NCBI GenBank assembly: GCA_000004985.1
Contig: GG738848.1
DNA: 64,000 nucleotides
Reading direction: 5' to 3' (one strand)
Source: Naegleria gruberi
Lineage: Eukaryota
A model generated the notes under the pieces. That model saw only the letters and a list, made by a program, of their open reading frames with translations. It searched no databases and was not told the origin of the DNA. Position 1 is the stretch's first letter; each line of letters opens with the position of its first letter. Made by a program: the position numbers and the translations under genes. This document shows positions 3,820-59,587 of this stretch, piece after piece.

Positions 3820-6800
3820 ATGATGGACTCCACCACAACAATGAATGGAAGTGATGAAGGTAGTACAATAACAATGAATGGAACAATCCATCATCATCAA
3901 AATACCAATGGTATTACTTCTTCATCAACACTAGCAGCAACTAGTAGTGATAATAACAATCATGATACATTAACAAGCACTCTGAATGATGATGCTATTA
4001 TTGAATCCACTCCAATCAAACAAGAAAGCTTTGATGAAAACTTGATGAAACAAAATTCAACAACGAGGCAACTATTGACAAAACCATTGTCTCTGGTTGA
4101 TTATGAATACTTACTCAAATTGGAGACTGACCTTTCCAATCAAGAAGATAACCATCTAGATGAAGGATATTTAAAGGATGCTGCAGAAGATTACGACAAA
4201 TTGGGAGATTACTGTACAAGTTATTTTGAATCGAATAGTTTAGATTTGGAGGTACAAAAACAGTTAATAGCAGAGAATTCAATCGAAACTCTGACAGTAG
4301 AAGAATCTAAAACTTTGGAATCCAAGACAATTTCAAAAACCCTTGAGGAAACATTCAATAGTATTTGTGATGAATATCTTGATATTAATGTGTATGAAGA
4401 GATTTTATCTCAACAATACGAGGAGCAAAATGAAAAGAAGAGAAAGCCATGTGATGGTGTTGCCATTCATACTTGGAAGAATACATTAATAAGAGCAAAT
4501 CAACCAACCTTGTTGGTTTCTTCATCCATGAGAAAAAAGAAGAGAACAAAAAGGGATGAACAAGATAGAGGCAACTTTGAAGTTGCATTCACTGTTCCAA
4601 TGAATGGTTTCAATATTAATAAGGTGGTTGAAAATTTCCAGAATTGCATCAGTTCACACCATCATTTTATAGACAAGGCCACCAATTTGAGAAGTAAGAA
4701 GAGTTGGATTGAAAATATGAATCAAGAACAAACAGAAATCAAAACACAAGTTGAACAATTTTCTAAAGCTCTCATTCATGAAAAGTTGAACGAAACGTTG
4801 AACTCTCAAAAGAGTCACGATACTAGAGCAACAAATGGAACTTCAAAGCCATCTGTAAATATCAAACACTCCAAATTACATCAAATATCCAAAGATGTGG
4901 CTCAAAAGGTAAAGGAAAAACAAACCAAATCAGTAACAGAGCTGGATAATACTGTGGGAGGTATTTCATCTGTACTTTCTGATAGAATGAACTCTTTTTG
5001 GAAGAAACACGAAAAGGAAATATCAGAAAAGAGAAAGAGAAAAAAGAAGGAAGAGGAAGAGAAGGAGGAAGCTGTAAGACAACAAAGAAAGTTAAACTTT
5101 CTCCTCTCTCAAACAGAACTCTACTCTCACTTTATGTCCAAAAAATCAATCACAAGTGCTGTCACTTCTGATGATTCAACAGAAGAGAATGCAGCTCAAT
5201 CAGCTCTTCAGGCATCACAAAGACAAAAGCAATTCACTGAAGATTTTGATAAGGAAATTGAAAAGTACAGAACACAATCATCAATGGAGGATGAAAATAT
5301 AATTGAAGCAGGTGACGAGACCATGCAAGAGCCAAATATTTTCAATGGCTCACTTAAAAAGTACCAGTTGAAGGGTATGAAATGGTTGGTATCTTTGTAC
5401 GAGCAAGGTATCAATGGTATTTTAGCAGAGTAAGTATATTTAACATTGCACTCCTTACTAAGACTAATATTACAATTCTTTATTTTAATGAAAATTTTAA
5501 TAGTGAAATGGGTTTAGGTAAAACAATTCAAACCATTGCATTTATGGCCTATCTGGCTGAAAAGAAGAGTATTTGGGGACCAACCCTTATCATTACTCCT
5601 TCATCTACACTTCACAATTGGCAACAAGAATTTGAAAAATTCTGTCCAACACTTCGAGTATTACCATACTGGGGAGCATTGAAGGAGAGAAAATTGCTCA
5701 GAAAGTACTGGACCAATCCAGATAAGCTCTATCAAAAAGACTCACCATTCCATGTTGTTGTTTCCAGTTATGGTTTAATATTGGAAGATGAAAAGTATTT
5801 CAAAAAAGTCAAGTGGCAATATTTAATTCTAGACGAAGCCCATGCCATTAAATCGAGTAAGAGTTTGAGATGGAAAACACTGTTGAGCATGAAATGTAGA
5901 AATAGAATGCTTTTAACAGGTACTCCTATTCAAAATAACATGAAAGAGTTGTGGGCCTTGCTTCACTTTATCATGCCTTCAATATTCGATTCTCATGACG
6001 AGTTTAATGATTGGTTTTCGAAAGATATTGAATCTCATGCAACAAAGGAACAAGACACCAAACTTAACGAGCAACAATTGGCCAGATTACACATGATTCT
6101 CAAACCTTTCATGTTGAGAAGAGTCAAGAAGGATGTTGAAAGTGAAATGGCACCAAAAACTGAGGTTGTCCTCTCGTGTGGGTTGAGTTCTCTGCAGGGA
6201 GAAACTTACTACCGTATTAAGGACGATTTCAAAAAATCCTCCAAAGATAAGAAGAAGAAGATTGCTGTTGATTCAACAAGCAAGTCAGCACTGATGAATA
6301 TTGTAATGCAACTGAGAAAGGCATGTAACCATACTCATTTATTCAAAGAGTTTAGACAAGACACACTCTCTCCATTCCCATTCACCACGCCAATATCATT
6401 CTTGAAGCACATTCCAGGAAAAATTTATGATGAGTGTGAAAGATTGACCAATCCTATTCAATTCCACCTTCCTAAATTAATTTTTAGGGAGCTGACACCA
6501 CAAGGATCTCTAGAAATGGAATCTAACAGTTTGATGATTTCAAAGAGATTTGACTTTGTTCATGACATTTCATACATGATAGATACGTTTGGAACACTTC
6601 GTTACTTTTTCAAAGATAATTTTTGGAGATTGTACAAACTTAGAAATTTAAAGAATAGAATAGTCGAGTTCAGAGATAGAAAGGGTGGTTTTCAATTTTT
6701 AATGGATGAGTTACTAAGTGAACAATTGAACAACCACCTCGAGAGATGTAATTATCTTATTCAAAATATTGAAATTTTCTACAAATCCAATAGAGATCTC

Positions 6801-7610
6801 CTCAAGAAACTTGGCGAGTGTTGCATTGAAAAAGTTATTGCACCACCAATAGAAGTCAAATGTTCTGATAGAGGTTGTGATTATCAAATGACACCCATTA
6901 AGACTAGGTTCTTTAATAAGAAGTTCTTGTACAATAATCAATTTATTTATGATACCTTTAACACTTCCAGAATATCATTACCGAGTGTTAGCAAACTTAT
7001 TGCCGATTCTGGAAAACTCAAAGTTTTGGATCAATTACTTTCGAAATTGAAACAAGAAGGACATAGAGTTTTAATTTTCTGTCAAATGACAAAAATGATG
7101 GACCTTTTAGAAGAGTACATGTACAAGAGAAGATATACATTCTTTAGATTGGATGGTTCAACAGGAATTTCAGAAAGAAGAGACATGGTAGATGCCTTCC
7201 AAAATCAACGAGTGGATCCAGTTTTTGCATTCCTTCTCTCCACAAAAGCTGGAGGTCTAGGTATTACCTTAACAGCAGCAGATACAGTCATTTTCTATGA
7301 CAGTGATTGGAATCCAACATTGGATGCTCAAGCCATGGATCGTGTCCACAGAATTGGTCAAACTAAGCCAGTTACAATCTATCGTTTAATTACTAAAAAC
7401 TCTGTGGAAGAGAGAATCCTTGCCATTGCCAAGCAAAAGAGTACCATTCAAGAGACAGTCTACAAGGGTCAATTCAAAATGCAAGACAGCAATGAAGAAG
7501 AAGCAGCTGATGAACTTCTCGAAGATGAGGATGCAGTTGAGGCAGCAGTCGTAGTCGATGATGCAGGAGATTTGGATGAGAAGGAAATCATGTCCCTCAT
7601 TCTAGATTAA
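3820..7610 (+). CDS. INO80: INO80-type SNF2-family chromatin-remodeling ATPase; join(3820..5429,5504..7610), about 1239 aa
   Basis: Exon 1 ends GCA GA|GTAAGT and exon 2 starts after TAATAG at 5504. Splicing creates GINGILADEMGLGKT (SNF2 motif I). A DEAH box (LILDEAHAIKSS) is present. A roughly 400-aa insertion separates the two RecA lobes. Helicase-C motifs are present (LIFCQMTKMMD, LLSTKAGGLGITLTAADTVIFYDSDWNP, QAMDRVHRIGQTKPV). A DBINO-like basic region (KKHEKEISEKRKRKKKEEEE...LNFLLSQTELYSHFM) lies in the N-terminal exon. Confidence 0.85.
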
Positions 7611-9019: not shown

Positions 9020-10924
9020 CTATTCTCTTGTGTAACCATTAAGGAATTGAATGAGTTCTTGTTTCTCTTGAGAATATTTGATATCATCCCACTTCAAGTC
9101 ATCCTTCATAATGTCCAAAAGCTTTTCTGGTTCCAATGCAATTCTTAATGGATCATATTTGTACATTTGACATCTAATAGCTACATCCAATGCCTTGATA
9201 CAATTCTCGTGCTTCACCAAATATTTAATTTCACTCTCAATGAATGGCAAGTCTTCCCAAACTTGTTGGTGTCTAAATATTTGCTTATCAGCAACTTGTT
9301 TCACATCTTGTGATAGAACATCCAAGCATCTGTCACCATAGCTGAATTTCAAGTATCTGATAATATCATTAGGAAGGTAAGGATATTTAGACTTCATGGT
9401 TTGAGTCAAGAAGTGAACAAAGTTTTCAGAGCCATAAATTGGTTCAGTATTTTTCATTTCTTTCAAGTCTTTTCCGTAAATATATTTCAATACAGCATGT
9501 GATGAGTAATAATCCTTGGTTTTGTCGATGATTCTCAAAGCATTTTCATATTTCAAACTGATCAATTTGAGCTCATTATCAAATACAAATCTAGAAGAAC
9601 TATAAATATCATTTTTGGTAAAGTCACCTAATCTCAATATTCCCTTCAAGTTTTCCAATTGTTGAGCTGGCAGTGATAATAAGCTGTATCTGTAATGTGA
9701 AATAAATTTTCCATACTGAGTAATGATATTATAGTTGGAAAGCTGTGGAAGAGTGAACAGGTATTCTTCCTTGCATTTGTGTGGATTGAGCCTCTTGAGA
9801 AGTTGTTCATCCTCAGAAGTATTCTCGCAAAATATTACCTTCTTGTACTTGATGGAATATTCCTTTTCGTTTATAATCTTATCTGAAAATGTCAGCAATG
9901 ATTTATCCATATCCACAGATTTGACATTCACATGGTTCAGAGCAATATTTCCAGATGCTGCCGATGTAAGAGCCAAAGAGGAGATAAATCTAGATAAATT
10001 CAGAATACCACTATCATAGTATGTGATACATCTGAAAACATTTCTGGCATCCTTCAAATCTCTAAACAAGTCACTCTCATCCTTTGTTCTTTCTTGGAAC
10101 CTATTCCTCAAAACTCCCAATCTAGCTTCACAATAATTTCTATCATCCAAAATTGTATCCTCCATCCACAAATCCTTTCCATACACAAAATATTCATATC
10201 CCAATAATTTCCACATTTGCTTGTAATACTTGAACTTTTGTGAGTTTCTAAATATTTCTGAATTTCTGTATTCTCTCATTAGGTGAGGAGCTATAGAAAA
10301 CAAGTGATTTCTCTTCTCCAACTTGTCCTTCATTGAATTGTACAAATTTTCATAATGTTTACACTCGATAACATCATTTTCAAAACCTCCAGAGCACTTC
10401 ATCACTTGAGTTTGAAAAAAGTTTGGTAAAAGTCCCTTCAATTCATCACCCTCCAACACATTATGAAAAATCAAATTGGAATTCAATGCCAAATCGTCCC
10501 TCTGTGAAACAAAATCATTAGATGAGAGCAAACAAACTGAATATCCTCTCATCGATGCTTCATAAGCCAACGATGCACCAATCAAACCATCCCCAACAAT
10601 ACACAAATCAAAATCCTCATCCAAATTCTCTACAATTTTAAATTGTTCCTCTCGTGATGGTATTTTCCATATGGCTGTTCGGAATGGAAAGGTTGTATAG
10701 TCAGCACTTGGTAAATCATCAACAGAAAAAGCCTGAATCATCCAAGGCTTTGCTACTACTGCTTGATGTAAATCATCGATGACTTTTTGAATGGATTCAT
10801 GGCCGTATGAGTGAGAAAAGGCTTTTCCTATGAGAAATGTTCCTCCTCCGATCAAAAGACATTTTCCAAGTGTTTTTGATGAGAATGAAGGCTTGCTGAA
10901 AATCTTCCTTCCAAATCTGAACAT
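9020..10924 (-). CDS. FAD-dependent oxidoreductase, divergent glycerol-3-phosphate-dehydrogenase-like, probably mitochondrial; 634 aa single ORF
   Basis: ATG at 10924. The N-terminus is basic and hydroxyl-rich, like a presequence. A Rossmann FAD motif DLCIVGDGLIGASLAYEASMRGYSV is present. RNHLFSIAPHLM resembles the RANLLEIAPHL segment of FAD-dependent GPD. The rest is divergent. Confidence 0.45.
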   Translation of the reverse strand: MFRFGRKIFSKPSFSSKTLGKCLLIGGGTFLIGKAFSHSYGHESIQKVIDDLHQAVVAKPWMIQAFSVDDLPSADYTTFPFRTAIWKIPSREEQFKIVENLDEDFDLCIVGDGLIGASLAYEASMRGYSVCLLSSNDFVSQRDDLALNSNLIFHNVLEGDELKGLLPNFFQTQVMKCSGGFENDVIECKHYENLYNSMKDKLEKRNHLFSIAPHLMREYRNSEIFRNSQKFKYYKQMWKLLGYEYFVYGKDLWMEDTILDDRNYCEARLGVLRNRFQERTKDESDLFRDLKDARNVFRCITYYDSGILNLSRFISSLALTSAASGNIALNHVNVKSVDMDKSLLTFSDKIINEKEYSIKYKKVIFCENTSEDEQLLKRLNPHKCKEEYLFTLPQLSNYNIITQYGKFISHYRYSLLSLPAQQLENLKGILRLGDFTKNDIYSSSRFVFDNELKLISLKYENALRIIDKTKDYYSSHAVLKYIYGKDLKEMKNTEPIYGSENFVHFLTQTMKSKYPYLPNDIIRYLKFSYGDRCLDVLSQDVKQVADKQIFRHQQVWEDLPFIESEIKYLVKHENCIKALDVAIRCQMYKYDPLRIALEPEKLLDIMKDDLKWDDIKYSQEKQELIQFLNGYTRE

Positions 10925-11075: not shown

Positions 11076-11426
11076 ATGTCGCAAACAATTACTAAAACTC
11101 AAGTTCAATCCTTGCTCGGAAATTTACCAACCGATCTTGTTTTGCTTGATGTTCGTGAACATTCCGAATATACATCCACAGATTTACCTGCAATTCATAA
11201 TAGTGCTATTAATGTTCCTGTTGCTACTGTAAAGAATGTTTTCGAGTTGAGTGATGAAGAATTTGAGAAACAAGTTGGAAAGAAGAAACCATCAAAGAAT
11301 GATCAAATTGTTACCTATTGTAAATTAGGAGGAAGAGCTCAAAAGGCTGCTGATCAATTGGTTGAATTGGGTTATACAAATGTACATTGTTTTAAGGGAT
11401 CTGCCTCTGAATGGTATTCTAATTAA
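11076..11426 (+). CDS. Single-domain rhodanese/sulfurtransferase, 116 aa
   Basis: ATG at 11076. The active-site Cys loop is IVTYCKLGGRAQKAA. The N-terminus reads LVLLDVREHSEY, typical of rhodanese. Confidence 0.75.
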   Translation: MSQTITKTQVQSLLGNLPTDLVLLDVREHSEYTSTDLPAIHNSAINVPVATVKNVFELSDEEFEKQVGKKKPSKNDQIVTYCKLGGRAQKAADQLVELGYTNVHCFKGSASEWYSN

Positions 11427-11445: not shown

Positions 11446-14142
11446 TTAGGTCTTTTTCTTCTTCTTTACACCACCAGCATCAAATTGAATGAATTGTAAT
11501 TCATACCTAGGAATTCTGAAATGCATAAATGGCATTCCAGCATTAGCAGCTTTGTTATTTGTTGAATTGTTATTTTGGTTTCGTTTTCTCTTCTTTTCCA
11601 CTGGTTGAGTAGTAGTGGTAAGAGGAGGTGTTACAGATTTGGTTTCTGATTTGACATTCGTATCAGTAATGTTATCAACTTGTCCTGAGGCAACTATACT
11701 ACTGCTACTACCAAAATTGGACATTGGTTGTGCATTCATACTCACAAAAGATGAGGTCAAATTGGAATTAACATCATTATTTTGAACATAGTTCCAGAGT
11801 GGATCAATATTTGGTCCTACAAGGGAGTTGGCAATGTCATTATTAACTGAGAGTAAGGAGTGTGGTTGTTCATCAGGATTGACAAGATCGAAATTGAAAT
11901 CTCCATCATCAAAAAGAAGAGCAAATGAATCATCAACAGAAATTGACATTCTATGTGACGCCTTTCTAGCCATAGTGACTGGAGCAACGGATTTTCTTCT
12001 GTATGAGGAAGGTTGTAAGAGAATTGAGGTTTTGTGAATATTCTCAATTTCATCCAATTTTTGTTCTTGGACGAAAATAGAGAGCAAGTCACAAACAAAG
12101 CTCAAAATTTGTTCATCTCGCTCACTAAAGTTACCTGTATGCTTGTTCAAAACTTCTAAAACTCCTACAAATTGGTTTCCACTTCCAACTATTGGAGAAC
12201 AAATAACACTCTTTGTTGAAAATCCTGTTGTTTTGTCCACTTCTGGTGCAAATTTAGAATTACTCCTCACATCAGGTATATTCACACTCTTTCCACTTTG
12301 GAAGCATGATCCTGCAATCCCTCTGTCAGAAGGAATTCTAATTTCATCTTCGCCAATTGCAACTTGTGAAATGAGCTCGTCTGTTTGTCTATCGTACATG
12401 AATAATGTTGTTCTTTCTGCATGTAACATTCTGGTAATACATGAGATTATGTGTTGGAAGAAAACTCCAACCGAGTGCAAGTCCTGTCTTAGAACAGATA
12501 AACGTCTATAGACACAACCCTTCTCTGTTGTTGACTCTCCAATTTTAACATGGTTTTCTTTCTTTTGGGTATTGTTGTTATCTCCTCCATTTTCAGCACT
12601 ATTTTCAACAACTGGAGTTGTTGATGAGGATGCAACCTTTTCTTGAGGCTCAATTCTAAAGAATGAAGGATACATATCCATAGCATACCTGGTTGGGAAG
12701 GCAGCTGGTGGAGTATTCTCTTCACCCCACAATTCAAAGGTTTGGGTCAATTCGTGTCTGTCCTTTTCTTCTGTATTGGAGGTTGTTTCTGGGTCACTGC
12801 TGGATACTTCTTTTTGAGGTGGGAATTTGTAGGTGTTAAGAGTTTCTTCGTCCTTTTTAGGTGGTGGGAATGTAAAGGCAGTAAGGGATTGATAAATATC
12901 ACCCTTTGGAGTGCCATTAGCAGAACCATTTGTACTATTTGGTGTTGAAGGTTGAGAAGTGGAAGTAGCGGATGGTGGCAGCATTGAGCCCATCATTTGT
13001 TGTTGACTTTGAATTGCTCTTGAAATAATATCAGGATTGCTGGAAATGTTGATATTATTGTAGAGATCTAGCATTTTTAGAACTTGTTCATATTTAGACT
13101 TGGCAAAAAGTAAGCAATGTTCTGCAACAACTGCTGTTCCGTATTGTTGAGCTTTGGCCCATTGTTGAAAAACGTTATCCACAGAAAGAGTTCCAATAAT
13201 AAATTCTTGGCATTGACTGAGAAGTGCACTCAGCTGATAGAATTTAGCTGCTTGATAAAGATCCCAAATCTTGTCAGATCTTAGAATGGTACAGTCAGTA
13301 TAAACAAATTCCAAAATATTATAGAAAATATCAGCAGATGCATCTTGAATCTCAATTTCCAAAATGGATGTATTGGAACATTTGACGAGAATTAGTTGAT
13401 TGAAATAATTACTCCTAGCACATAAAATTAATTTGTGAGCATAAAACTTCTTTCCTTGAATAATAAACGTCACATCACTTAAAATTGGATTATTAAAGAA
13501 TTGTTTGATGCTTGATCCCATGGTGTTACTCTTACTAATAAATGTTTGAGCTGTGGACTCTGTTATGGAACTTTGCCCCAATCCAGCCTGTCCTGCATTG
13601 TTAGTGGAACTAGAGGATGTAGAAACTGGTGATTGTGTAGGTTGTTGTATCTGCAAGATGCTTGAAGAGTTGGGAGAAATTTGTTGCAAGTTATTGTTAT
13701 TTGAAAGTTGATTTACGACCATATTCGAAAATTGATTATTCATGGGTGGTGAGGATACTTGGATTACTTGTTGATTTGAATTTTGTTGATTTAACAATTG
13801 TTGTAGCATGTTTTGTTGTTGATTTGTATTGTTTTGTTGTTGGTTTTGTTGAATAAGATTCATCAGGTTGTTGAAAATACCCATTGCTTGCTGATTATTA
13901 TTGTTAGAGGGTGATGGTTGGTTGTTTTGCATTTGTTGTTGTTGTTGGAAGAGATTGATTATACTATTCATGTTGTTATTACTATTACTATTGTTCTTCA
14001 TCATGTTGAGAAGCGAATTGATCTCATTCATTGAATTATTACCATTATTATTATTGTTGTTATTGTTGCCATTGTTATTATTCATCATCATAACTAGAGC
14101 ATTCAATAACTGTCCCGAATTTGCCTGATTATTCGGTAACAT
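11446..14142 (-). CDS. Poly-N/Q-rich regulatory protein with a BTB/POZ domain and a cNMP-binding-type GAF domain (NKFDE-like signature); 898 aa
   Basis: ATG at 14142. There are long Asn and Gln homopolymer tracts at both ends. The BTB fold reads DVTFIIQGKKFYAHKLILCARSNYFNQLI. The GAF domain reads LFMYDRQTDELISQVAIG...GIAGSCFQSGKSVNIPD...SPIV..NQFVGVLEVLNKHTGNFSERDEQIL, and the NK..FSE.DE motif matches the cyclic-nucleotide-binding GAF signature. The composite upstream region (14143..15111) may hold 5' UTR exons. Confidence 0.7.
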   Translation of the reverse strand: MLPNNQANSGQLLNALVMMMNNNNGNNNNNNNNGNNSMNEINSLLNMMKNNSNSNNNMNSIINLFQQQQQMQNNQPSPSNNNNQQAMGIFNNLMNLIQQNQQQNNTNQQQNMLQQLLNQQNSNQQVIQVSSPPMNNQFSNMVVNQLSNNNNLQQISPNSSSILQIQQPTQSPVSTSSSSTNNAGQAGLGQSSITESTAQTFISKSNTMGSSIKQFFNNPILSDVTFIIQGKKFYAHKLILCARSNYFNQLILVKCSNTSILEIEIQDASADIFYNILEFVYTDCTILRSDKIWDLYQAAKFYQLSALLSQCQEFIIGTLSVDNVFQQWAKAQQYGTAVVAEHCLLFAKSKYEQVLKMLDLYNNINISSNPDIISRAIQSQQQMMGSMLPPSATSTSQPSTPNSTNGSANGTPKGDIYQSLTAFTFPPPKKDEETLNTYKFPPQKEVSSSDPETTSNTEEKDRHELTQTFELWGEENTPPAAFPTRYAMDMYPSFFRIEPQEKVASSSTTPVVENSAENGGDNNNTQKKENHVKIGESTTEKGCVYRRLSVLRQDLHSVGVFFQHIISCITRMLHAERTTLFMYDRQTDELISQVAIGEDEIRIPSDRGIAGSCFQSGKSVNIPDVRSNSKFAPEVDKTTGFSTKSVICSPIVGSGNQFVGVLEVLNKHTGNFSERDEQILSFVCDLLSIFVQEQKLDEIENIHKTSILLQPSSYRRKSVAPVTMARKASHRMSISVDDSFALLFDDGDFNFDLVNPDEQPHSLLSVNNDIANSLVGPNIDPLWNYVQNNDVNSNLTSSFVSMNAQPMSNFGSSSSIVASGQVDNITDTNVKSETKSVTPPLTTTTQPVEKKRKRNQNNNSTNNKAANAGMPFMHFRIPRYELQFIQFDAGGVKKKKKT

Positions 14143-15111: not shown

Positions 15112-16182
15112 ATGAAAAATATTGATAGTGATTGTATGGTATTTGTTTTGGAATTTATGAGTGTGGCGGATCATGTTTATCAATTATCGAGGGTGTGTTC
15201 CGATTGGAGAATAAATTCAATCAAGTTTATTGTGAGGTATTTGGACAAGAGGTATGCAATGTTGGGAGATTTAGTGAAACAATTCGAAACTTGTTTTGGG
15301 TGTTCAGTATCGGGAAGGAAAATGAGAAAGTTTCTGATGAGATGCCATGTCAGAGACTTGGCAGAATATTTACTTGATTCATATGAAGGAGTCCACGAAA
15401 ATCAACAGTTCACCATTCTTTGGGTTAAGAGTGAAATGGAAATTCTGTGTAATTACTTGAAAATTTCTAATAGGATGAAATCAGATGGCAACCAAACTAA
15501 ATCTACTGGGTTTTTCACAAAGATTGGAAAATTATTCTCTAAAAAAACACATGACAAGGCATCTATTCAATCACCCAACAAAGAGGTAGAATCTAATATG
15601 AAACAATTTGATTATATCAATGTGGAGTCTTCTATTCAGGGAAATTTGAATGATTTAGAACGATACTATCTTGTCAATGCTATTATGGGAATTGAGTTTA
15701 TACCAGAGTATGATGAGGAGGGAAACTTGGATGAGAGTGTATTTTCGAGAGCGTGTCTTTATGGAAGCACTGATATTGTGTTGGAATTGAAAGATTGGTT
15801 CAAGATTCATTTGAATATTAGATATCCTAAACTCACAAGTGACAATTTGGAACCTAAAAGTTTGCTATCTCACTCACACCTTCTAATGATATCAGGAATA
15901 TCAATGCAGACAAACAGAAATAACTTGGAATTAATTAAGGAGCTCGACTTGAATAAGAAACTATTTAAAGATGATTCATGTAAGGTTTCCAATTACGAGC
16001 AAGTGGTTGTTGGTGTCAAGGTTAGTGATCCTCTCTTAAACTCACAACAAATGATTCAAACAGCATTTAGTTTTGATGGATTGCAATATTTCGAGTTTAA
16101 CGTCAGCAATCCACATCAAATGAGAGTATTATATTGGTATTCAATATTAATGTCATTCATTCTAAGTTTTTTAAATAGTTAA
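15112..16182 (+). CDS. F-box-like domain protein, 356 aa, function unknown
   Basis: ATG at 15112. The N-terminus MVFVLEFMSVADHVYQLSRVCSDWR fits the F-box pattern (L..L....F......L.....VC..W). No other recognisable domain. Confidence 0.5.
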   Translation: MKNIDSDCMVFVLEFMSVADHVYQLSRVCSDWRINSIKFIVRYLDKRYAMLGDLVKQFETCFGCSVSGRKMRKFLMRCHVRDLAEYLLDSYEGVHENQQFTILWVKSEMEILCNYLKISNRMKSDGNQTKSTGFFTKIGKLFSKKTHDKASIQSPNKEVESNMKQFDYINVESSIQGNLNDLERYYLVNAIMGIEFIPEYDEEGNLDESVFSRACLYGSTDIVLELKDWFKIHLNIRYPKLTSDNLEPKSLLSHSHLLMISGISMQTNRNNLELIKELDLNKKLFKDDSCKVSNYEQVVVGVKVSDPLLNSQQMIQTAFSFDGLQYFEFNVSNPHQMRVLYWYSILMSFILSFLNS

Positions 16183-17914: not shown

Positions 17915-20900
17915 TTAGAAGCCCATCAAGTGTGAACCGTTTCTATCACCTCTAAAGTTAGCTCGAAAATATCTGTCTATAGCATCTGAATTCCAACCAC
18001 CCATGGCCTTGATGGTAGCATCAGGGATACCCATAATGGCAGCCTCCGTGGCTCCACCAATTCTCAACGAATGAGAAGAGTACTTTCCTGGATCAGCTTC
18101 GATCCATGTTGCAACCTGAGTTAAGATGTAAGAAATCTCAACTGTATTTAAAGAAAAACCACCGGTAAACAAAAACTTTCCTTTGTCTCTTGAATCAAGT
18201 AATTTTTGAAGCCATTTCATCGGACACAATTCAGAACCTGTCGCTTCGATACATGATTTTCTTCCTTTCTTATCATTCTTCACTTTTCTCACTGTTATAC
18301 TAAACCCCACCACCGGGAACTTCACAATCTTTAGATCCTCTATTAATAAACCACCCAATTCTGAACCCCTAAACATTGACCTTATACCAAAAATCATTAG
18401 GCACGTGTATAGAACATATGATTTTTCTTTAACAAACTGTCTACCAACAATTACCCATTTACAAATAAATTCTATTCTCCATGGATCTCTTTCTCTCTTT
18501 GTCGCCACTGTAGCCAGATTGCACATACCCTTTATCACCATCTGTACTCTAATGTTTACTGTAATATCCTCCCAACCAATCCTTTTACAAAAATGCTTAA
18601 TAGCATACATTGCACTTCGACAGTTATTACCAGATGGTGTTTTGATGAACATAAAGGTGAGAAATCTGACTACCATTTCACTAGTTGCTGGTGGAACCTC
18701 TTTTTGCTTAATAAGAAAGTTGATAAATCTATTCCAATAACTTTCATAGTTGTCTGTTGTGGATATTTCAATTGAACATGACATTAATGTATCTGCAATC
18801 TTACTCAAATCGTGACTCTGCAGTCTACTAATGTTGCTCTTATGGTCCAAAATCCTTTGCATGGTTCTAGGTTCCCTCCTTGGGAGGCTCTGAAATGATT
18901 TCCATCTAGATTCATAAAACGAATTTGATAACTTTCTATTATCTTCCACCACCACCTCTTTTTCCATACTGGATGAACCAATACCATAACTGCTTTGGAC
19001 TCTAGACAATGTTGTAATACTCTCCCTATTAGATTGAAAGGTACGCAGCACCAATTTACCACTGGCTCTGTCCAAAGGTGAGAGAATGAATCTGCTTTCT
19101 CTCTTCTGCTGGTCTTCTTTCTCACTGTATATGGTTTTGTCTTGAAGTTGTAATGAGAGGCGAATCTGTCCCATCCTATTGATACATCCAGCTGCTTCTC
19201 TACTAATTGAAAAGCTTCTTTGGTAATCTCCCAATCTGTTGGGTCTTTCTCTTGAATATTTCTGCTCAGATTGTCCGCTACTTGATTCTCCTCCGAAGGT
19301 AACCATTCTAACGAAAGCAAACGGATGTCGTGTTCGAAAATAATGCGCCATATTAGTTGAATCAATTGATTCATAATGGGAGACTTTGCTCTTCCCTTCA
19401 TTATACAATATAGAGCCACCTTTGAATCCGTGTAAACAATTAAATTCTTTCCTTTCAAAAGATGTGACCATTCTTTTAGGGCAAGATAGATCGCTCTCAC
19501 TTCTAATACATTGATATGTTCTTGGCATTGTTCTCCCTTCCAAAAACCTTGTAGTTTCAAATTTCTTTCTTTGTGGAAAACTCCCCATCCCAATCTCGAT
19601 GCATCTGTCCAAAAGTATTCCACTAAGCTTGGATATTGGAACACCTTTCCATTCCAATGGTCCAAGTTGTATAAAATCCATTGGAGATTGAAAATTACAT
19701 CTCGGTCTCTGATGCGAAATTCGGAATCCCAGCCTCCAATATTCACCTAGTCCACCACTAAAGAATAAATCGGATTCAACATCACCCTTGCAGGTTGGAA
19801 ACAGTCTACATAAGCAATTATAATACCAGTCATCCGAAACAGTTCTCTGGATGTTACTTTCTGATCTTGGTGATACTTGGCAAGGGCTATGGAAATACGA
19901 GTTCGAATTTTCTCTAATGTAGCTTCTGTCATAATTAATTTCCTGCTGACCAGATCTATCTTGATCCCAAGTAGTTGAAAGACTTTTAATGGAGTTAACT
20001 GACTCTTCTTCTTTTCGATAACTACACCTAATTCTGCACATACCATTGTAACGAATGTATTGTTCCTTAATGCAGATAAATAGGAACCAAAATGTAATAA
20101 ACCAACATCGTCTAAGTAATTGGATGGTGTTAAAGAATCTGATCTCAAAAAATTGATAAATACATTCATCATTTGTGTAAAAAAGTATGGAGATCCATTC
20201 CATCCAAATGGAAGGACTGTGAATTGCAAAACCTCTTCCTCTACTTGAATGGCAAAGTATGGTCTGTCCTTCCTTTTTACCTTCATCTGGTGATATCCGG
20301 ATTTCATATCGAACATAGAACCCCAAATTTGATCTGTCTTGTTCATTGGTACGTGTTCTAAAAACTTCTTCAACGTGTTGTACTTGAATTTGGGGATAGA
20401 ACAAAACCGATTGAGCGGTCTTAAATCGATAATCAGTCGGTATGATTCTTTCTTTGGGACCAGCCGATACTTGGCTATCACTTTTGGATTGTGACAAGGT
20501 TCCAAAGCTCCAATCTCTTTCAAAATACTCACTTCTCTTTTTAACCATTCTCTCTCTTCCAAAGACCATTCTTCTAAATTTACCTTTCCATAGTATGGAA
20601 CAAATTCTTCGTTTGTTTGAACTGATACACCCTCTTTCAACATATCCACTATTTCCATTGAAGCTCCTTTCTTCCTCCAGGTATCCCATTTGTTCGAAAT
20701 GGAATGAATAGCCTCTCTTCTTTCTTCTACCTCTCGGAAAAAACAAATCATCTACATACTCTGAACCCTCTCTTTTATTTCTCTTAGGGCAATCTTTGAT
20801 CAGATGGTTTGGGTCATTACAAATAAAGCATTTCTTCACTTTCTTCATACCATTAGCACTACCAAACATATTCACCTTTTCCTCTGCCTTATCTTTCTTA

Positions 20901-21754
20901 TCATAAATCTTGGCATTTGCATAGGATTTAACAAAACTTGTCTTACCCTTCTCCTTATGGTCGAACTTGAGTAGTTTTTCTGCCATCTTAAGCTTATCCA
21001 TGTTCTCACGCCATAATGGATTGCTTTCTATAAACGCCAATTTAGATGCTAATTCTGGATTGACGGCTTGAACTTGTAATTGGAAAGCTCTTGTCTCTAA
21101 GTTCGCAACCATTTTCTTCGTATCATCTATTTCTGGGAAAAGATTAGCTATCTTCATTGTAAAAGCAGAATCCTTTCTCAAATTCTCATATTCTGTAAGA
21201 AGACTAGAATTAGTTGTTGGCAATGGTGTGTAGATTGTATCTGTGTATTTTCTAACTTCAGATTCAGCTGCCAATTGTTGTAAAACACGTTCTGTTTCAG
21301 CTTTTTCCAGCTTCATCTGTGCAATCTTAGCATCGATTATTTGTTCATAAGCCTTAAATCTCTTCACATCTTCTTCTGATACCTCTTCTCTCTTTCTCTT
21401 GTTAGAGCCATCTTCAACTTCTACAACTGACTCACCATCGTCCTCTTCGTCATCATCATCGTCATCATCATCTCTTGCTTCCTTGAATGCATGTTTAATC
21501 TCATCCTTTAACTTCTCTACATCTTTACTCTTGCCACTTGTGCAAACCGTAAACTTGTCTGCACCAATAAAGTCAACAATTGCCTTTGCCAATACCTTCT
21601 TTTGGCCAGAAACTTCAATTTCCAAGGTACCTATAATCTTTTGTATCAAGGCCTTTGTTAACTTTCCAACAGCACTTTTATCATGCTTCTTAAGTATGTC
21701 AGTGATGGTTTCTTGAATTGTTGATTGACTCATAATGTGTTGCAATTTTTTCAA
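17915..21754 (-). CDS. Retroelement ORF A: Gag-like N-terminus with CX2CX4HX4C zinc knuckle, then a C-terminal tyrosine recombinase, in one uninterrupted 1279-codon frame
   Basis: Starts MKKLQHIMSQ within repeat A1. The knuckle is CFICNDPNHLIKDCPKR. The YR boxes are HSLRIGGATEAA and GGWNSDAIDRY at the C-terminus. The middle ~600 codons have no recognisable domain yet stay open while overlapping the RT/RH frame. Confidence 0.75.
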   Translation of the reverse strand: MKKLQHIMSQSTIQETITDILKKHDKSAVGKLTKALIQKIIGTLEIEVSGQKKVLAKAIVDFIGADKFTVCTSGKSKDVEKLKDEIKHAFKEARDDDDDDDDEEDDGESVVEVEDGSNKRKREEVSEEDVKRFKAYEQIIDAKIAQMKLEKAETERVLQQLAAESEVRKYTDTIYTPLPTTNSSLLTEYENLRKDSAFTMKIANLFPEIDDTKKMVANLETRAFQLQVQAVNPELASKLAFIESNPLWRENMDKLKMAEKLLKFDHKEKGKTSFVKSYANAKIYDKKDKAEEKVNMFGSANGMKKVKKCFICNDPNHLIKDCPKRNKREGSEYVDDLFFPRGRRKKRGYSFHFEQMGYLEEERSFNGNSGYVERGCISSNKRRICSILWKGKFRRMVFGRERMVKKRSEYFERDWSFGTLSQSKSDSQVSAGPKERIIPTDYRFKTAQSVLFYPQIQVQHVEEVFRTRTNEQDRSNLGFYVRYEIRISPDEGKKEGQTILCHSSRGRGFAIHSPSIWMEWISILFYTNDECIYQFFEIRFFNTIQLLRRCWFITFWFLFICIKEQYIRYNGMCRIRCSYRKEEESVNSIKSLSTTWDQDRSGQQEINYDRSYIRENSNSYFHSPCQVSPRSESNIQRTVSDDWYYNCLCRLFPTCKGDVESDLFFSGGLGEYWRLGFRISHQRPRCNFQSPMDFIQLGPLEWKGVPISKLSGILLDRCIEIGMGSFPQRKKFETTRFLEGRTMPRTYQCIRSESDLSCPKRMVTSFERKEFNCLHGFKGGSILYNEGKSKVSHYESIDSTNMAHYFRTRHPFAFVRMVTFGGESSSGQSEQKYSRERPNRLGDYQRSFSISREAAGCINRMGQIRLSLQLQDKTIYSEKEDQQKRESRFILSPLDRASGKLVLRTFQSNRESITTLSRVQSSYGIGSSSMEKEVVVEDNRKLSNSFYESRWKSFQSLPRREPRTMQRILDHKSNISRLQSHDLSKIADTLMSCSIEISTTDNYESYWNRFINFLIKQKEVPPATSEMVVRFLTFMFIKTPSGNNCRSAMYAIKHFCKRIGWEDITVNIRVQMVIKGMCNLATVATKRERDPWRIEFICKWVIVGRQFVKEKSYVLYTCLMIFGIRSMFRGSELGGLLIEDLKIVKFPVVGFSITVRKVKNDKKGRKSCIEATGSELCPMKWLQKLLDSRDKGKFLFTGGFSLNTVEISYILTQVATWIEADPGKYSSHSLRIGGATEAAIMGIPDATIKAMGGWNSDAIDRYFRANFRGDRNGSHLMGF
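18805..20751 (-). CDS. Retroelement ORF B: reverse transcriptase plus RNase H, in the +1 frame relative to ORF A, with one in-frame stop at 19747..19749
   Basis: RT motifs are LPFGWNGSPYFF and SNYLDDVGLL. The RNase H motif is LIVYTDSKVALYC / TDASRLGWGVF. The two track ORFs 19747..20751 and 18805..19746 share one frame and are split by a single stop. The frame begins exactly where the Gag part of ORF A ends, which suggests a frameshift junction near 20751. Confidence 0.75.
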
Positions 21755-25148: not shown

Positions 25149-26030
25149 TATTTCAAATAAAAATTGTTTATAGATCTGCAAAGTTCATTCTCTTTTCACA
25201 ATTTTTCTTCAAATGGATAGCAACTTTGTCACTTGCATTATTTTGTAAATATTTTGAAAGTAAGGTGGCAGCATTGTTGAAATTCTCATTGAAATATTCT
25301 TGAGTTGCTTCATTGTAAATATTCCATTGTTCATTCTTCTCCTTTGCATTCAATTCATACATCCATTCATCAGCTTCATTATTAATACTTTCACCCAATT
25401 CGTAAACTTTTCTTGGTGCGTGAATTTGACTTTTATCTGCAATGTTTGGATATGAATAATAATCATCCAACACAAAATTCTTAAAATCAACAAATCTAAC
25501 TTGAAACTTGTTGTCAATTTTCTGGAATAATTCATGAGAAATAACTATTGGAATATCCAACTCTTTTGCAGTTTCAATCATGCCTTGAATATTGTATTGA
25601 ACACTTCCAAAAACACCAAAGTTCATAATCTCCTTTGTTCCCACATTACCACACATACATTCTTGAGTTGTTGCAACAATATGGAAATCCAAATTCAATG
25701 TCGGATTATTCTCATAAACAATATGCTGTGATAGCTTATTTTCCTGTAAAGTTATCAATTTTTTCAATAAGGAATGACAACATTGAAGACCCTTCATTTC
25801 ATGTTTATGTTGATCACCTGAAGCATTGAAGAGAATTGTAACTGTTTCATTTTCAAATTTACCAACTTGTCCATTACTAATCTTTGCTACATAGTTAATA
25901 ACATCAAAAACATCTGTCAAAATGGAAAGACACTCTTTTGGATTGGCATTGTTGAACAAAATATTGACACCGTCCAAAAAGGCACTAACAGCAGTAACTC
26001 TCTTCTTTTCCAAATATAGAGAGAACATGT
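25149..26030. repeat. Inverted segmental duplication or gene-conversion tract shared with 58250..59102 (about 97% nt identity)
   Basis: The antisense ORFs 25350..25535 and 58716..58901 are identical. ORFs 25635..25829 and 58422..58616 differ at 5 of 64 residues. Similarity ends about 20 bp past the stop codons. Confidence 0.7.
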
Positions 26031-47704: not shown

Positions 47705-48916
47705 TTATCTTCTTCTTGTATTTGCATTGGTAGGAGCAGTATTTGGTTGACGAGGAAGTTGAGGTGGTGTTGGAGTAGGTCCTACAACCTCTTCTTCTTC
47801 CTCTGATTCATCATCAACACCATGCATGTTTCTAAATTCTGTATGAGTTGCCTTGTCGACTGTTGAACCAGTCACTTCCGTCAAAAAGTTCAGTATTTGA
47901 TCCATATCTAACAACTCCTTTCTTAGCCTAGATCCATGTTGATAAATGTACAAGGGAGTTGCACTTTCCTTTGTTTTCATACCTAGTTCATCCTTATTCT
48001 TTTCAATATAAAATTGTTTTTCAAATTGTTGGATAAGTTTTTCAGGTAATCCAAACACAGAGTGATAATGTCCTTTTTCAATTCCAAGTTTTAACAGTAA
48101 TTTCCACATTTCCTCTTCATCCAAACGATTCTTTCTTATTTGAATAAGACAGACAATTACCATCAATAATCCTATTTGTGACTGTTCAAGTCCCTCCAAA
48201 CTAAATTCACGTCTCTTACGTTGAATACTGTTCGAACTTGCTTGTTTCTTTTCCTTTTTAGACAGGTCTAATAGTGGCAAACCATCAAGGTCTGCTGGTA
48301 ATAATCGAAGAATATATATTCCTGAAGACTTTTTCTTTTGTTTTTGAGTTTGTGTAGCTTGGGTTGACTTGGTGTTAACATCAGCATTTGTGTCATGCCT
48401 ATCTATTTCAACTAATTCAAATCCAAATATTTTGATGAATCTTTGTGAGGCTTTTCCGAGTAAATTATCGAGCAACCCCTTTCTCCCCTTGTATTTTTCA
48501 CCAAGAACCGTTGCATTCAAATCTTCTTTTTTAATTGGTAATTTGTTTGCATCTTTGAACAAACAAAATCTCATCAGACTTCCAATTAAATGTTCCTCTT
48601 CCTGTTCTAATAAATTAAAATTGGGAGGCTCTTGTGTTGCTTTTGGTTTTTTAGCTCGTGGATTACTTTGTGTGGTTTTTCTCTTCCTATTATTTGATGG
48701 TACAACTTCAGCCTCTTCTTCCGAGTCATATGAATCATCTTCCTGTTGTTGTGACGCAAAACGTTGTGATGATTGCGATTGTGATGGTGGTATTACTTTT
48801 CTCTTAGGTGCCTACAATACATTGATCATCATTCCAAATAACAAATCATCAAAAAATTCGTATGTGAGTTTGCAAATTAATTTGAAAACGTTTTCTCAAA
48901 ACAAATAACGTACCAT
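47705..48916 (-). CDS. NSE3/MAGE-homology-domain protein (SMC5/6 non-SMC element 3-like), about 369 aa; join(48916..48914,48811..47705)
   Basis: Exon 1 is the ATG alone, followed by GTACGT. A 102-nt intron ends at TGTATTGTAG(48812). The spliced protein starts MAPKRKVIPPSQ. MAGE-type blocks are PIKKEDLNATVL, IKIFGFELVEI, IGLLMVIVCLIQIRKNRLDEEEMWKLLLKLGI, GLPEKLIQQFEKQFYIE and LYIYQHGSRLRKEL. Confidence 0.6.
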
Positions 48917-59585: not shown

Positions 59586-59587
59586 AA

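What the first reader, a model, noticed from the sequence alone, without database searches (positions are those of the whole stretch)
11446..14142. BTB/POZ plus cNMP-type GAF domain combination in a poly-N/Q protein
The GAF domain carries the NK..F.E.DE-type motif (LNKHTGNFSERDEQ) associated with cyclic-nucleotide-binding GAFs, as in PDE2/5/6 and some cyclases. BTB is usually a Cullin-3 adaptor or a dimerisation module. A BTB-GAF fusion would couple cNMP sensing to ubiquitin-ligase targeting or transcriptional control. I do not recall this combination as a described family. Extreme N- and Q-homopolymers flank the domains.
Basis: partly seen in the sequence, partly recalled or inferred. Interest (0 to 1): 0.55.

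Follow-up and report, generated by a model that had tools for sequence, protein, structure and literature searches.

The report
BTB protein with cAMP-type GAF sensor
This Naegleria gruberi gene encodes one protein that joins a ubiquitin-ligase-adaptor-type BTB domain to a GAF domain whose binding pocket looks like that of known cAMP/cGMP sensors, so it may be an unstudied kind of cyclic-nucleotide effector, although nucleotide binding has not been shown.

Summary
Window 11446..14142 (-) is one uninterrupted 898-aa ORF. It is identical to N. gruberi XP_002682074.1, which is misnamed 'adenylate/guanylate cyclase' and has no cyclase domain.

- **BTB domain.** Pfam finds BTB at aa 213-317 (E=1.7e-25). 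A 3-box/BACK-like helical extension runs to about aa 386. Its best structural matches are CUL3 adaptors (KBTBD4, KBTBD2, SPOP, KEAP1).
- **GAF domain.** There is a single GAF at aa ~555-695 (GAF_2, 36 bits, above the cut-off). Its best PDB relatives are the nucleotide-binding GAFs: CyaB2 (8e-30), PDE2A GAF-B (8e-23), PDE5, PDE6, PDE10 and Lcd1.
- **Pocket.** The NKFDE motif is intact. Eight of 12 PDE2A cGMP-contact positions are identical and one is conservative. The three differing positions are the purine-selecting ones, and they look like cAMP-binding CyaB2.
- **Conservation.** Orthologues with the same order occur in N. fowleri, N. lovaniensis, Willaertia, Acrasis and several metagenomic protists. 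All share invariant linear motifs: RRLS and RRKS sites flanking the GAF, an acidic patch, a KKRKR NLS, and the C-terminal PFMHFRIPRYELQFIQF motif with a lysine tail.
- **Caveat.** The canonical pocket is eroded outside the Naegleria/Willaertia clade.

Best reading: a dimeric, probably nuclear, cAMP-responsive BTB adaptor. Ligand binding and output are inferred, not shown. No literature describes it.

The parts
11446..14142 (-). Complete gene/ORF, 898 aa plus stop. Equals N. gruberi XP_002682074.1, misnamed 'adenylate/guanylate cyclase'.
13558..14142 (-). N-terminal N/Q-rich low-complexity region, aa 1-195 (29% N, 18% Q). Not conserved in sequence. Absent in Acrasis and the metagenomic relatives.
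13192..13506 (-). BTB/POZ domain, aa 213-317. The position of the CUL3 'phi-x-E' motif is C255-S256-N257.
12985..13191 (-). 3-box/BACK-like helical extension of the BTB, aa 318-386 (AF2 pLDDT 80-92).
12862..12897 (-). Conserved linear motif IYQSLTAFTFPP, aa 416-427.
12658..12747 (-). Conserved linear motif TQTFELW..PPAAFPT..YPSFF, aa 466-495. Present in all family members. No PDB or Pfam match.
12493..12507 (-). RRLSV, aa 546-550. A basophilic (PKA/PKG-type) phospho-site consensus just N-terminal of the GAF. It reads [RK][RK][LF]S in all 11 aligned family members.
12058..12480 (-). Single GAF domain of the cyclic-nucleotide-binding clade, aa ~555-695.
12214..12252 (-). Ligand-contact/lid segment FAPEVDKTTGFST, aa 631-643. 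It corresponds to PDE2A Y481..T492, with V, D, T, F and T identical.
12112..12147 (-). NKFDE motif N666 K667 x4 F672 x3 D676 E677.
   Evidence: PMC11977230, PMC4411481
11989..12021 (-). LLQPSSYRRKS, aa 708-718. A second conserved basophilic phospho-site consensus, C-terminal of the GAF. RKAS follows at 726-729.
11884..11934 (-). Acidic/hydrophobic patch DDSFALLFDDGDFNFDL, aa 737-753 (activation-domain-like or docking motif).
11581..11598 (-). EKKRKR, aa 849-854. Classical monopartite NLS consensus. KKRKR is invariant in the seven sequences and varies slightly in the shorter metagenomic relatives (K-P-K-K-K, K-K-R-K-K).
11449..11532 (-). C-terminal motif PFMHFRIPRYELQFIQFD plus lysine tail, aa 871-898. 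The most conserved element of the family; partner unknown.

Best explanation
The gene encodes a BTB-scaffold signalling protein that is regulated by cyclic nucleotide. The steps below are marked as shown or inferred.

- **Shown:** a BTB domain with a 3-box/BACK-like extension of the type found in CUL3 substrate adaptors.
- **Inferred:** this BTB makes the protein a homodimer.
- **Shown:** a single GAF domain belonging to the CyaB/PDE cyclic-nucleotide-binding clade, with an intact NKFDE motif and conserved ribose/phosphate-contact residues.
- **Inferred:** the GAF binds cAMP (less likely cGMP). The reason is that the three purine-selecting positions are A595, I596 and A632, as in cAMP-binding CyaB2, and not F, D and Y as in cGMP-binding PDE2A.
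- **Inferred:** nucleotide binding closes the GAF lid and moves its terminal helices. This changes the exposure of the flanking conserved elements.
- **Shown (as sequence):** those elements are two PKA-type RRxS sites, an acidic patch, a KKRKR NLS and the invariant C-terminal PFMHFRIPRYELQFIQF-Kn motif.
- **Inferred:** these elements recruit a partner or substrate to the BTB dimer, most likely for CUL3-dependent ubiquitination and/or nuclear transcriptional control.
- **Inferred, by analogy with PDE5:** phosphorylation next to the GAF is a second cAMP-dependent input.
For: **Architecture.** One ORF, BTB E=1.7e-25, GAF_2 above the gathering score.

**GAF clade.**
- phmmer against the PDB ranks CyaB2 1YKD (8.4e-30), then PDE2A 1MC0 (7.9e-23), then HD-GYP 4MCW, PDE5, PDE6, PDE10 and Lcd1-cAMP.
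- Within PDE2A, the nucleotide-binding GAF-B scores 68.8 bits and the non-binding GAF-A scores 13.3 bits.
- The AF2 GAF model has pLDDT 81.5. Its Foldseek top 39 PDB hits are all GAFs of cyclic-nucleotide enzymes.

**Pocket map**, from the alignment (PDE2A GAF-B residue, then this protein):
- S424 / T579
- I458 / I609
- A459 / A610
- V484 / V635
- D485 / D636
- T488 / T639
- F490 / F641
- T492 / T643
- E512 / E663
- F438 / A595, D439 / I596 and Y481 / A632 differ. CyaB2 GAF-A has V-A-A-G-E and F-A at these places.

CyaB2 T293 and I308, shown by mutagenesis to affect ligand binding (PMC4411481), align to T579 and V594. The NKFDE motif is complete, and mutating it in PDE2/5 abolishes or greatly weakens cGMP binding (PMC11977230).

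The closest non-family relatives are tandem-GAF-PAS-cyclases with the domain order I recall for CyaB1/CyaB2. At least one of them is annotated as bacterial, and they are 37-47% identical over the GAF.

**BTB type.** The BTB plus extension is modelled at pLDDT 80-92. Its best PDB matches are KBTBD4, KBTBD2-CUL3, SPOP, KEAP1 and KLHL3-CUL3 over 140-220 columns. ZBTB transcription factors rank lower.

**Conservation.** The architecture and motifs are conserved in N. lovaniensis, N. fowleri, Willaertia magna, Acrasis kona and the metagenomic proteins P0004, P0012, P0068, P0069, P0072 and P0085.
Against: - No binding data exist, and the contact-residue list for PDE2A is from my memory of Martinez 2002 and Wu 2004. 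Those papers were not retrievable. The list was checked only by confirming that every remembered residue type falls at the right offset in the 1MC0 sequence.
- There is a single GAF. Characterised cNMP-GAF proteins have tandem GAFs, and an isolated CyaB2 GAFb has reduced affinity and specificity (PMC4411481).
- In Acrasis, P0012, P0068, P0069, P0072 and P0085 the lid segment is deleted and pocket residues are lost. The rest of the protein is still conserved, so the family's core function does not need canonical cNMP binding.
- The CUL3 'phi-x-E' position reads C-S-N, and Pfam BACK does not hit.
- The SLiMs are not docked by AF2 (pLDDT below 50).
- Nuclear localisation rests only on a KKRKR consensus. 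The aromatic-basic C-terminus could instead bind membranes.
Confidence: 0.45

Rival explanations
1. The GAF is a ligand-free structural or dimerisation module, or binds a different small molecule. The protein is then a BTB adaptor or regulator controlled mainly by phosphorylation of the RRxS sites, and the intact pocket in Naegleria is inherited rather than functional.
For: More distant family members lack the lid segment and several pocket residues. They still keep the BTB, the [RK][RK][LF]S site and the acidic patch, and those that are not truncated also keep the C-terminal motif; the NLS is kept in slightly varied form. NKFDE residues are structural and do not contact the ligand (PMC11977230). 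There is only a single GAF. The GAF of the top structural hit, 4MCW, has no established ligand (own knowledge).
Against: In Naegleria spp., P0004 and Willaertia, 12 of 13 mapped pocket positions and four of the five NKFDE residues are strictly conserved at 56-70% overall identity. The other two positions vary only in P0004 (A610V, E677Q). This argues for purifying selection on the pocket. Similarity to nucleotide-binding GAFs is far higher than to non-binding ones (68.8 against 13.3 bits within PDE2A).
Confidence: 0.3
2. The protein is a BTB-type nuclear transcription co-regulator and not a CUL3 adaptor. The BTB only dimerises. The Q/N-rich N-terminus and the acidic FALLFDDGDFNFDL patch act as activation regions. 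The C-terminal basic/aromatic motif binds DNA, chromatin or a transcription factor. cAMP (through the GAF) and PKA gate its activity, much as plant NPR1 couples a BTB to direct ligand sensing.
For: KKRKR NLS consensus, an acidic-hydrophobic patch, a lysine tail and a Q/N-rich N-terminus. The phi-x-E position is non-canonical (C-S-N) and there is no Kelch/MATH substrate domain. By sequence, BTB hits include ZBTB17, BCL6 and BACH.
Against: No recognisable DNA-binding domain. The 3-box/BACK-like extension and the best structural matches are those of CUL3 adaptors, not ZBTB factors. The N/Q tract is not conserved. This reading is compatible with cAMP sensing, so it rivals only the output step.
Confidence: 0.2
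3. The database name is right and the protein is an adenylate/guanylate cyclase. Alternatively, the ORF is a gene-model fusion of two separate genes.
For: NCBI and UniProt name the protein 'adenylate/guanylate cyclase'. The closest non-family GAF relatives are GAF-PAS cyclases, which probably caused the name.
Against: No PF00211 hit even at E<=1, and no unassigned folded region large enough for a cyclase domain. A genuine PF00211 ORF elsewhere in the window scores E=1e-56, so the method detects it. There is a single stop-free ORF, and collinear orthologues exist in five genomes and in metagenomic single ORFs.
Confidence: 0.02

Closest known systems
cAMP-binding tandem GAF domains of cyanobacterial adenylyl cyclases CyaB1/CyaB2 (PDB 1YKD)
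   Same: Best sequence match in the PDB (E=8.4e-30, both GAFs match). It shares the motifs ADRTT/AERTT, VAAGE/VAIGE, EIRIPxDxGIAG, FA...TG(Y/F)xT and VLNK. The purine-selecting positions are small or aliphatic, as in the cAMP binder. Proteins with the domain order I recall for CyaB1/CyaB2 (GAF-GAF-PAS-cyclase) are the nearest non-family homologues.
   Different: There is one GAF rather than a tandem pair and no PAS or cyclase output. The output here is a BTB domain plus linear motifs. The host is a eukaryote.
Regulatory GAF domains of mammalian PDE2, PDE5, PDE6, PDE10 and PDE11
   Same: Same GAF subfamily and NKFDE motif. Eight of 12 PDE2A GAF-B cGMP-contact residues are identical and one is conservative. 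A basophilic kinase site lies just N-terminal of the GAF, as with Ser102 of PDE5, whose phosphorylation raises cGMP affinity (own knowledge).
   Different: It lacks the Asp (PDE2A D439, PDE5 D164) that favours cGMP (PMC4411481, citing Heikaus 2008). There is no phosphodiesterase catalytic domain and only a single GAF.
BTB-3-box/BACK CUL3 substrate adaptors (SPOP, KEAP1, KLHL3, KBTBD2, KBTBD4)
   Same: The BTB fold plus the following helical pair(s) superpose best on these adaptors. By sequence, KBTBD4 scores 9e-17 and SPOP 7e-11 over BTB plus 3-box. KEAP1 and KBTBD4 are precedents for CRL3 adaptors that respond to small molecules (own knowledge).
   Different: No Kelch or MATH domain. The phi-x-E CUL3-contact position is C-S-N. 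Pfam BACK is not detected. CUL3 binding is untested.
Plant NPR1/NPR3/NPR4 (BTB proteins that bind salicylic acid directly) - functional analogy only
   Same: A BTB domain combined with a small-molecule-sensing region, an NLS and a C-terminal regulatory/activation region in one nuclear co-regulator that also interfaces with CUL3 (own knowledge).
   Different: No sequence relationship outside the BTB. NPR proteins use ankyrin repeats and a salicylate-binding C-terminal domain, not a GAF.

Membership tests
Cyclic-nucleotide-binding GAF subfamily (PDE2/5/6/10/11, CyaB1/2) | GAF fold | tested here: met
   Pfam GAF_2 at 36.3 bits against a cut-off of 28.6. AF2 model pLDDT 81.5 with the typical helix-strand order. 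Foldseek probability 1.00 to GAF structures.
Cyclic-nucleotide-binding GAF subfamily (PDE2/5/6/10/11, CyaB1/2) | NKFDE signature (N-K-xn-F-x3-D-E) | tested here: met
   N666 K667 F672 D676 E677. Chance expectation is 0.003 per protein. The motif definition is from PMC4411481 and PMC11977230.
Cyclic-nucleotide-binding GAF subfamily (PDE2/5/6/10/11, CyaB1/2) | Conservation of ligand-contact residues (ribose/phosphate cage and lid) | tested here: met
   Eight of 12 PDE2A GAF-B contact positions are identical, one is conservative, and three purine-side positions are CyaB2-like. The contact list is from memory and was checked against the sequence offsets.
Cyclic-nucleotide-binding GAF subfamily (PDE2/5/6/10/11, CyaB1/2) | Tandem GAF-A/GAF-B arrangement | tested here: not met
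   Only one GAF is detected by Pfam and by phmmer self-scan. The linker is predicted to be disordered.
Cyclic-nucleotide-binding GAF subfamily (PDE2/5/6/10/11, CyaB1/2) | Measured binding of cAMP or cGMP | not testable with these tools
   Requires recombinant protein.
CUL3 substrate adaptors (BTB-3-box/BACK) | BTB fold followed by a 3-box/BACK helical extension | tested here: met
   BTB E=1.7e-25. aa 213-386 are modelled at pLDDT 80-92. The top Foldseek hits are KBTBD4, KBTBD2, SPOP, KEAP1 and KLHL3 over 140-220 columns. The Pfam BACK model itself did not hit.
CUL3 substrate adaptors (BTB-3-box/BACK) | phi-x-E CUL3-contact motif in the alpha3-beta4 loop | tested here: inconclusive
   The aligned position is C255-S256-N257. 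It reads C-N-N, C-P-N or C-K-N in the orthologues and C-K-D or F-K-D in the metagenomic relatives. The alignment to SPOP M233-E-E was made by hand from a remembered SPOP sequence.
CUL3 substrate adaptors (BTB-3-box/BACK) | Physical binding to CUL3 and a dedicated substrate-binding domain | not testable with these tools
   No Kelch, MATH or other known substrate domain. The GAF and the SLiMs would have to serve this role.
Class III adenylate/guanylate cyclases (the name the protein carries in NCBI and UniProt) | Catalytic domain PF00211 | tested here: not met
   No hit at E<=1. A positive control in the same window scores E=1e-56.
ZBTB/BTB-zinc-finger transcription factors | C-terminal zinc fingers or another DNA-binding domain | tested here: not met
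   No such Pfam or NCBIfam hit. The C-terminal region has no PDB sequence match.

The most novel reading that the evidence does not exclude
This family is a previously unrecognised class of eukaryotic cyclic-nucleotide effector. It would be a cAMP-gated BTB/CUL3 adaptor (or nuclear co-regulator) in which a single CyaB-type GAF, rather than a CNB domain, translates cAMP directly into protein degradation or transcription. It would do so through an invariant C-terminal docking motif. It would operate in Naegleria, including the pathogen N. fowleri, whose genomes carry very large cyclase repertoires.
Probability: 0.3. Interest if true: 0.8.

Novelty: new variant of a known kind. Interest (0 to 1): 0.55.

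Why it matters
The known eukaryotic cAMP/cGMP receptors are few: PKA/PKG, Epac, CNG/HCN channels, Popeye proteins and the GAF domains of phosphodiesterases. In every characterised case a cNMP-type GAF regulates an enzyme.

Here a cNMP-type GAF is wired to a BTB scaffold. That would link cyclic nucleotides directly to ubiquitin-ligase targeting or nuclear regulation. It would also help explain what the very large adenylate/guanylate cyclase families of Naegleria signal to.

The family is conserved in the human pathogen N. fowleri, which makes it an accessible target for study.

The work also corrects a database misannotation ('adenylate/guanylate cyclase'). It defines an invariant C-terminal motif whose partner is unknown.

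Tried and rejected
- A word-index search of 5.8 billion proteins with the C-terminal 54 aa, meant to find the PFMHFRIP motif in other architectures, returned no candidates, not even the protein itself. It is uninformative.
- PDB sequence searches with the C-terminal motif and with the FELW/PPAAFPT linker gave nothing at E<=10.
- AF2 of aa 196-898 with an 11-sequence alignment folded the BTB-3box and the GAF. It left all linear motifs at pLDDT below 50 and gave no docking hypothesis.
- NCBIfam gave nothing meaningful.
- Literature searches found no relevant paper. The searches covered Naegleria+GAF+BTB, BTB+GAF+cyclic nucleotide, the accession numbers, and Naegleria+cullin+BTB. The Acrasis kona genome paper and its held supplements do not mention AKO1_014682, GAF or BTB.
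- The primary structural papers (Martinez 2002 and 2005; Heikaus 2008 and 2009) are not held. The PDE2A contact list is therefore from memory and was cross-checked against the sequence.
- The 'adenylate/guanylate cyclase' annotation was rejected because there is no PF00211.
- The apparent lack of a BTB in P0012 was rejected. Its ORF runs off the contig end, and the upstream frame still encodes the BACK-like helices.
- The short ORFs on the + strand inside the gene (<=122 aa) were not pursued. They were not scanned against any library and lie inside a conserved coding region.
Full report
**What is there.**

Window 11446..14142 (minus strand) is a single uninterrupted ORF of 898 codons plus a stop. 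In-frame stops lie directly upstream of its ATG. The translation is identical over its full length to Naegleria gruberi NEG-M XP_002682074.1 / EFC49330.1 / UniProt D2V1L3. The window is therefore N. gruberi nuclear DNA (about 34% G+C).

Pfam finds BTB/POZ at aa 213-317 (E=1.7e-25) and GAF_2 at aa 560-691 (36.3 bits against a gathering score of 28.6). This pattern is expected 0.003 times by chance and appeared in 46 of 20,000 composition-preserving shuffles.

The first 195 residues are 29% Asn and 18% Gln. The only correction is that the extreme homopolymeric sequence is N-terminal only.

**The database name is wrong.**

NCBI and UniProt call the protein 'adenylate/guanylate cyclase'. No class III cyclase domain (PF00211) is found even at E<=1. 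A genuine cyclase ORF elsewhere in the same window scores E=1e-56 with the same tool. The name was probably transferred from the closest non-family homologues, which are GAF-GAF-PAS-cyclases, at least one annotated as bacterial.

**Is the GAF of the cyclic-nucleotide type?**

The evidence comes from four directions.

1. *Ranking against solved structures.* The best PDB matches are these:
   - Anabaena CyaB2 tandem GAF with cAMP, 1YKD (E=8.4e-30, both GAFs matched).
   - PDE2A, 1MC0 (7.9e-23).
   - An HD-GYP GAF, 4MCW.
   - PDE5, PDE6, PDE10A GAF-B and Lcd1-cAMP.
   - GAFs with other ligands (methionine-sulfoxide reductase, PtsP, NifA-like) score at least 10 orders of magnitude worse.
2. *Binding versus non-binding GAFs.* Within PDE2A, the cGMP-binding GAF-B scores 68.8 bits and the non-binding GAF-A scores 13.3 bits.
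3. *Structure.* An AF2 model of aa 535-720, built on a 32-sequence alignment, is confident (mean pLDDT 81.5; core blocks 88-98). Its 39 best Foldseek PDB hits are all GAFs of cyclic-nucleotide enzymes.
4. *Pocket residues.* I mapped the residues that contact cGMP in PDE2A GAF-B. The list is from my memory of Martinez et al. 2002 and Wu et al. 2004, because those papers are not held. As a check, all 12 remembered residue types fall at the correct offsets in the 1MC0 sequence printed.

| PDE2A GAF-B | This protein | Status |
|---|---|---|
| S424 | T579 | conservative |
| I458 | I609 | identical |
| A459 | A610 | identical |
| V484 | V635 | identical |
| D485 | D636 | identical |
| T488 | T639 | identical |
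| F490 | F641 | identical |
| T492 | T643 | identical |
| E512 | E663 | identical |
| F438 | A595 | differs (purine side) |
| D439 | I596 | differs (purine side) |
| Y481 | A632 | differs (purine side) |

At the three differing positions the sequence resembles CyaB2 GAF-A, which has VAAGE and FA where this protein has VAIGE and FA. The equivalent Asp in PDE5 (D164) discriminates cGMP from cAMP (PMC4411481, citing Heikaus 2008). Its absence here points to cAMP.

CyaB2 GAFb T293 and I308 affect ligand binding when mutated (PMC4411481). They align to T579 and V594.

The NKFDE residues do not touch the ligand. Mutating them in PDE2 and PDE5 abolishes or greatly weakens cGMP binding, and they mark this subfamily (PMC11977230). 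All are present here.

Actual binding remains untested.

**The BTB.**

AF2 of aa 196-898 folds aa ~213-386 at pLDDT 80-92. This covers the BTB plus a further set of helices.

Foldseek places this unit closest to CUL3 substrate adaptors: KBTBD4, KBTBD2-CUL3, SPOP, KEAP1 and KLHL3-CUL3. The alignments span 140-220 columns, so they include the 3-box/BACK region. The first ZBTB-type transcription-factor BTB appears only at rank 50, with 100 columns. Sequence search agrees, with KBTBD4 at 9e-17 over query residues 19-156.

Two points count against a simple filing as a CUL3 adaptor. Pfam BACK does not hit. The position of the CUL3-contacting phi-x-E motif reads C255-S256-N257; it is C-K-N in Willaertia and Acrasis and C-K-D or F-K-D in metagenomic relatives. 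That position comes from my hand alignment to a remembered SPOP sequence.

**A conserved family, not a one-off fusion.**

Full-length collinear orthologues exist in the following:
- N. lovaniensis, 70% identity.
- N. fowleri, 69%.
- An ENA contig, P0004, 64%.
- Willaertia magna, 56%.
- Acrasis kona, 40%.
- A JGI metagenome contig, P0012.

P0012 appeared to lack a BTB. This is only because its ORF runs off the contig end, and the upstream frame still encodes the BACK-like helices.

An exhaustive HMMER profile search of 1.84 billion representative proteins added more members:
- P0068, P0069/P0210, P0072 and P0085 are shorter metagenomic proteins. In P0069 and P0072 Pfam finds both BTB and GAF. 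In P0068 and P0085 it finds only BTB, and the GAF region is recognised by alignment to the family.
- P0195 is a fragment.
- P0115 has a duplicated BTB/GAF arrangement and a related C-terminus (PVFHFRL...KKKK).

All of the named sources among these relatives are Heterolobosea. The origin of the metagenomic members is unknown. The metagenomic genes were called as single ORFs, so BTB and GAF are on one exon there too. The third refutation criterion (separate transcripts) is very unlikely, although no transcript data were examined.

**What else is conserved.**

Between and after the domains the protein is predicted to be disordered. It nevertheless carries short motifs that are nearly invariant across the family:
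- IYQSL..F.FP (aa 416-427).
- F-E-L-W...PPAAFPT..S...FP.FF (aa 466-495).
- RRLSV (aa 546-550), which reads [RK][RK][LF]S in all 11 sequences and lies just before GAF helix 1.
- LLxPSxYRRKS (aa 708-718), just after the GAF.
- An acidic-hydrophobic patch, DDSFALLFDDGDFNFDL (aa 737-753).
- KKRKR (aa 850-854), a classical NLS consensus.
- The C-terminal 17-mer PFMHFRIPRYELQFIQF followed by a lysine tail. This is the best-conserved element of the whole protein.

Neither the linker motif nor the C-terminal motif matches anything in the PDB or Pfam.

The two RRxS sites are PKA/PKG-type consensus sites. The arrangement recalls PDE5, where phosphorylation of a basophilic site N-terminal of GAF-A raises cGMP affinity (own knowledge).

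**A caveat from evolution.**

The canonical pocket is strictly kept in the three Naegleria species and Willaertia. P0004 departs only at A610V and in the last NKFDE residue (E677Q).

In Acrasis, P0012, P0068, P0069, P0072 and P0085 the lid segment (F631-T643) is shortened or deleted, and several contact residues are lost. The NKFDE signature mostly persists in these proteins.

The family's core function therefore does not depend on canonical nucleotide binding. That core function presumably involves the BTB and the SLiMs. Either cNMP sensing is ancestral and was lost repeatedly, or it matters only in the Naegleria/Willaertia branch. The second, fully intact GAF of P0115 is compatible with an ancestral complete pocket.

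**Most likely mechanism.**

- *Shown:* a BTB-3box scaffold and a single CyaB/PDE-type GAF with an intact, cAMP-like pocket, flanked by conserved phospho-site, acidic, NLS and C-terminal motifs.
- *Inferred:* the BTB dimerises and may recruit CUL3.
- *Inferred:* the GAF binds cAMP, and ligand-induced lid closure and helix movement alter the accessibility of the adjacent motifs.
- *Inferred:* PKA-type phosphorylation provides a second cAMP input.
- *Inferred:* the C-terminal motif docks a partner or substrate, probably in the nucleus.

I give the composite about 0.45. Within it, nucleotide binding by the N. gruberi protein is about 0.6, and CUL3 adaptor function is about 0.4.

The main rivals are:
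- a ligand-free or other-ligand GAF (0.3);
- a purely transcriptional, CUL3-independent output (0.2, compatible with cAMP sensing);
- the cyclase or mis-fusion readings (0.02).

**Comparison and novelty.**

The parts are well-known kinds: a cNMP-type GAF and a CUL3-adaptor-type BTB. In every case I know of, a cNMP-type GAF regulates an enzymatic output (own knowledge). In solved structures it is joined to phosphodiesterases. A BTB output was not found in any paper searched.

The proteins exist in databases only as 'hypothetical', 'BTB domain-containing' or misnamed entries.

I rate it a new variant of a known kind, with interest 0.55. It offers a concrete, testable candidate for a new cyclic-nucleotide effector class in a lineage with very large cyclase repertoires, and it is present in N. 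fowleri. Its function is still wholly inferred.

Noticed in passing
window 42430..46731 (+) and 46814..47695 (+): A 1433-aa ORF with TmcB-type TPR and a C-terminal PAS domain is followed 83 nt later by an ORF with a strong adenylate/guanylate cyclase catalytic domain (PF00211, E=1e-56). This is probably one PAS-cyclase gene split by a short intron or frame change. It is a genuine cyclase about 30 kb from the gene misnamed as one.
   Followed up: partly
window 17915..21754 (-): A 1279-aa ORF has a CCHC zinc knuckle (E=7e-4) and a C-terminal tyrosine-recombinase/'Phage_integrase' match (24.9 bits, just below the cut-off). Local G+C is higher (0.38) and GC skew is strongly negative. It looks like a tyrosine-recombinase (DIRS/Ngaro/Crypton-like) mobile element.
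   Followed up: partly
window 51651..54680 (+): A hybrid histidine kinase (HisKA + HATPase_c + receiver domain) of 1009 aa, that is, prokaryote-type two-component signalling in this eukaryotic window.
   Followed up: no
window 3820..5433 (+) and 5382..7610 (+): An ORF with the DBINO DNA-binding domain overlaps the start of an ORF with SNF2 and Helicase_C domains. Together they look like an INO80-type remodeller split by an intron or frameshift.
   Followed up: no
window 11076..11426 (+): A single-domain rhodanese ORF of 116 aa. It is convergent with the BTB-GAF gene and ends only 20 nt from that gene's stop codon, so the 3' ends are tightly packed. Beyond it lies a DAO/DAO_C glycerol-3-phosphate dehydrogenase-like gene (9020..10924, -).
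   Followed up: no
P0115 (ENA metagenome protein, 1049 aa; not in the window): A relative with a duplicated BTB/GAF arrangement (two BTB and two GAF matches). Its last GAF keeps a complete NKFDE motif and lid, and its C-terminus (PYPVFHFRL...KKKK) resembles the family motif. Its source organism is unknown.
   Followed up: partly
window 47705..48574 (-), 59582..60955 (+), 15112..16182 (+), 25168..27612 (-), 57458..59083 (+): A MAGE-homology-domain ORF and a weak F-box ORF. There are also three long ORFs (356, 814 and 541 aa) with no Pfam match at all.
   Followed up: no
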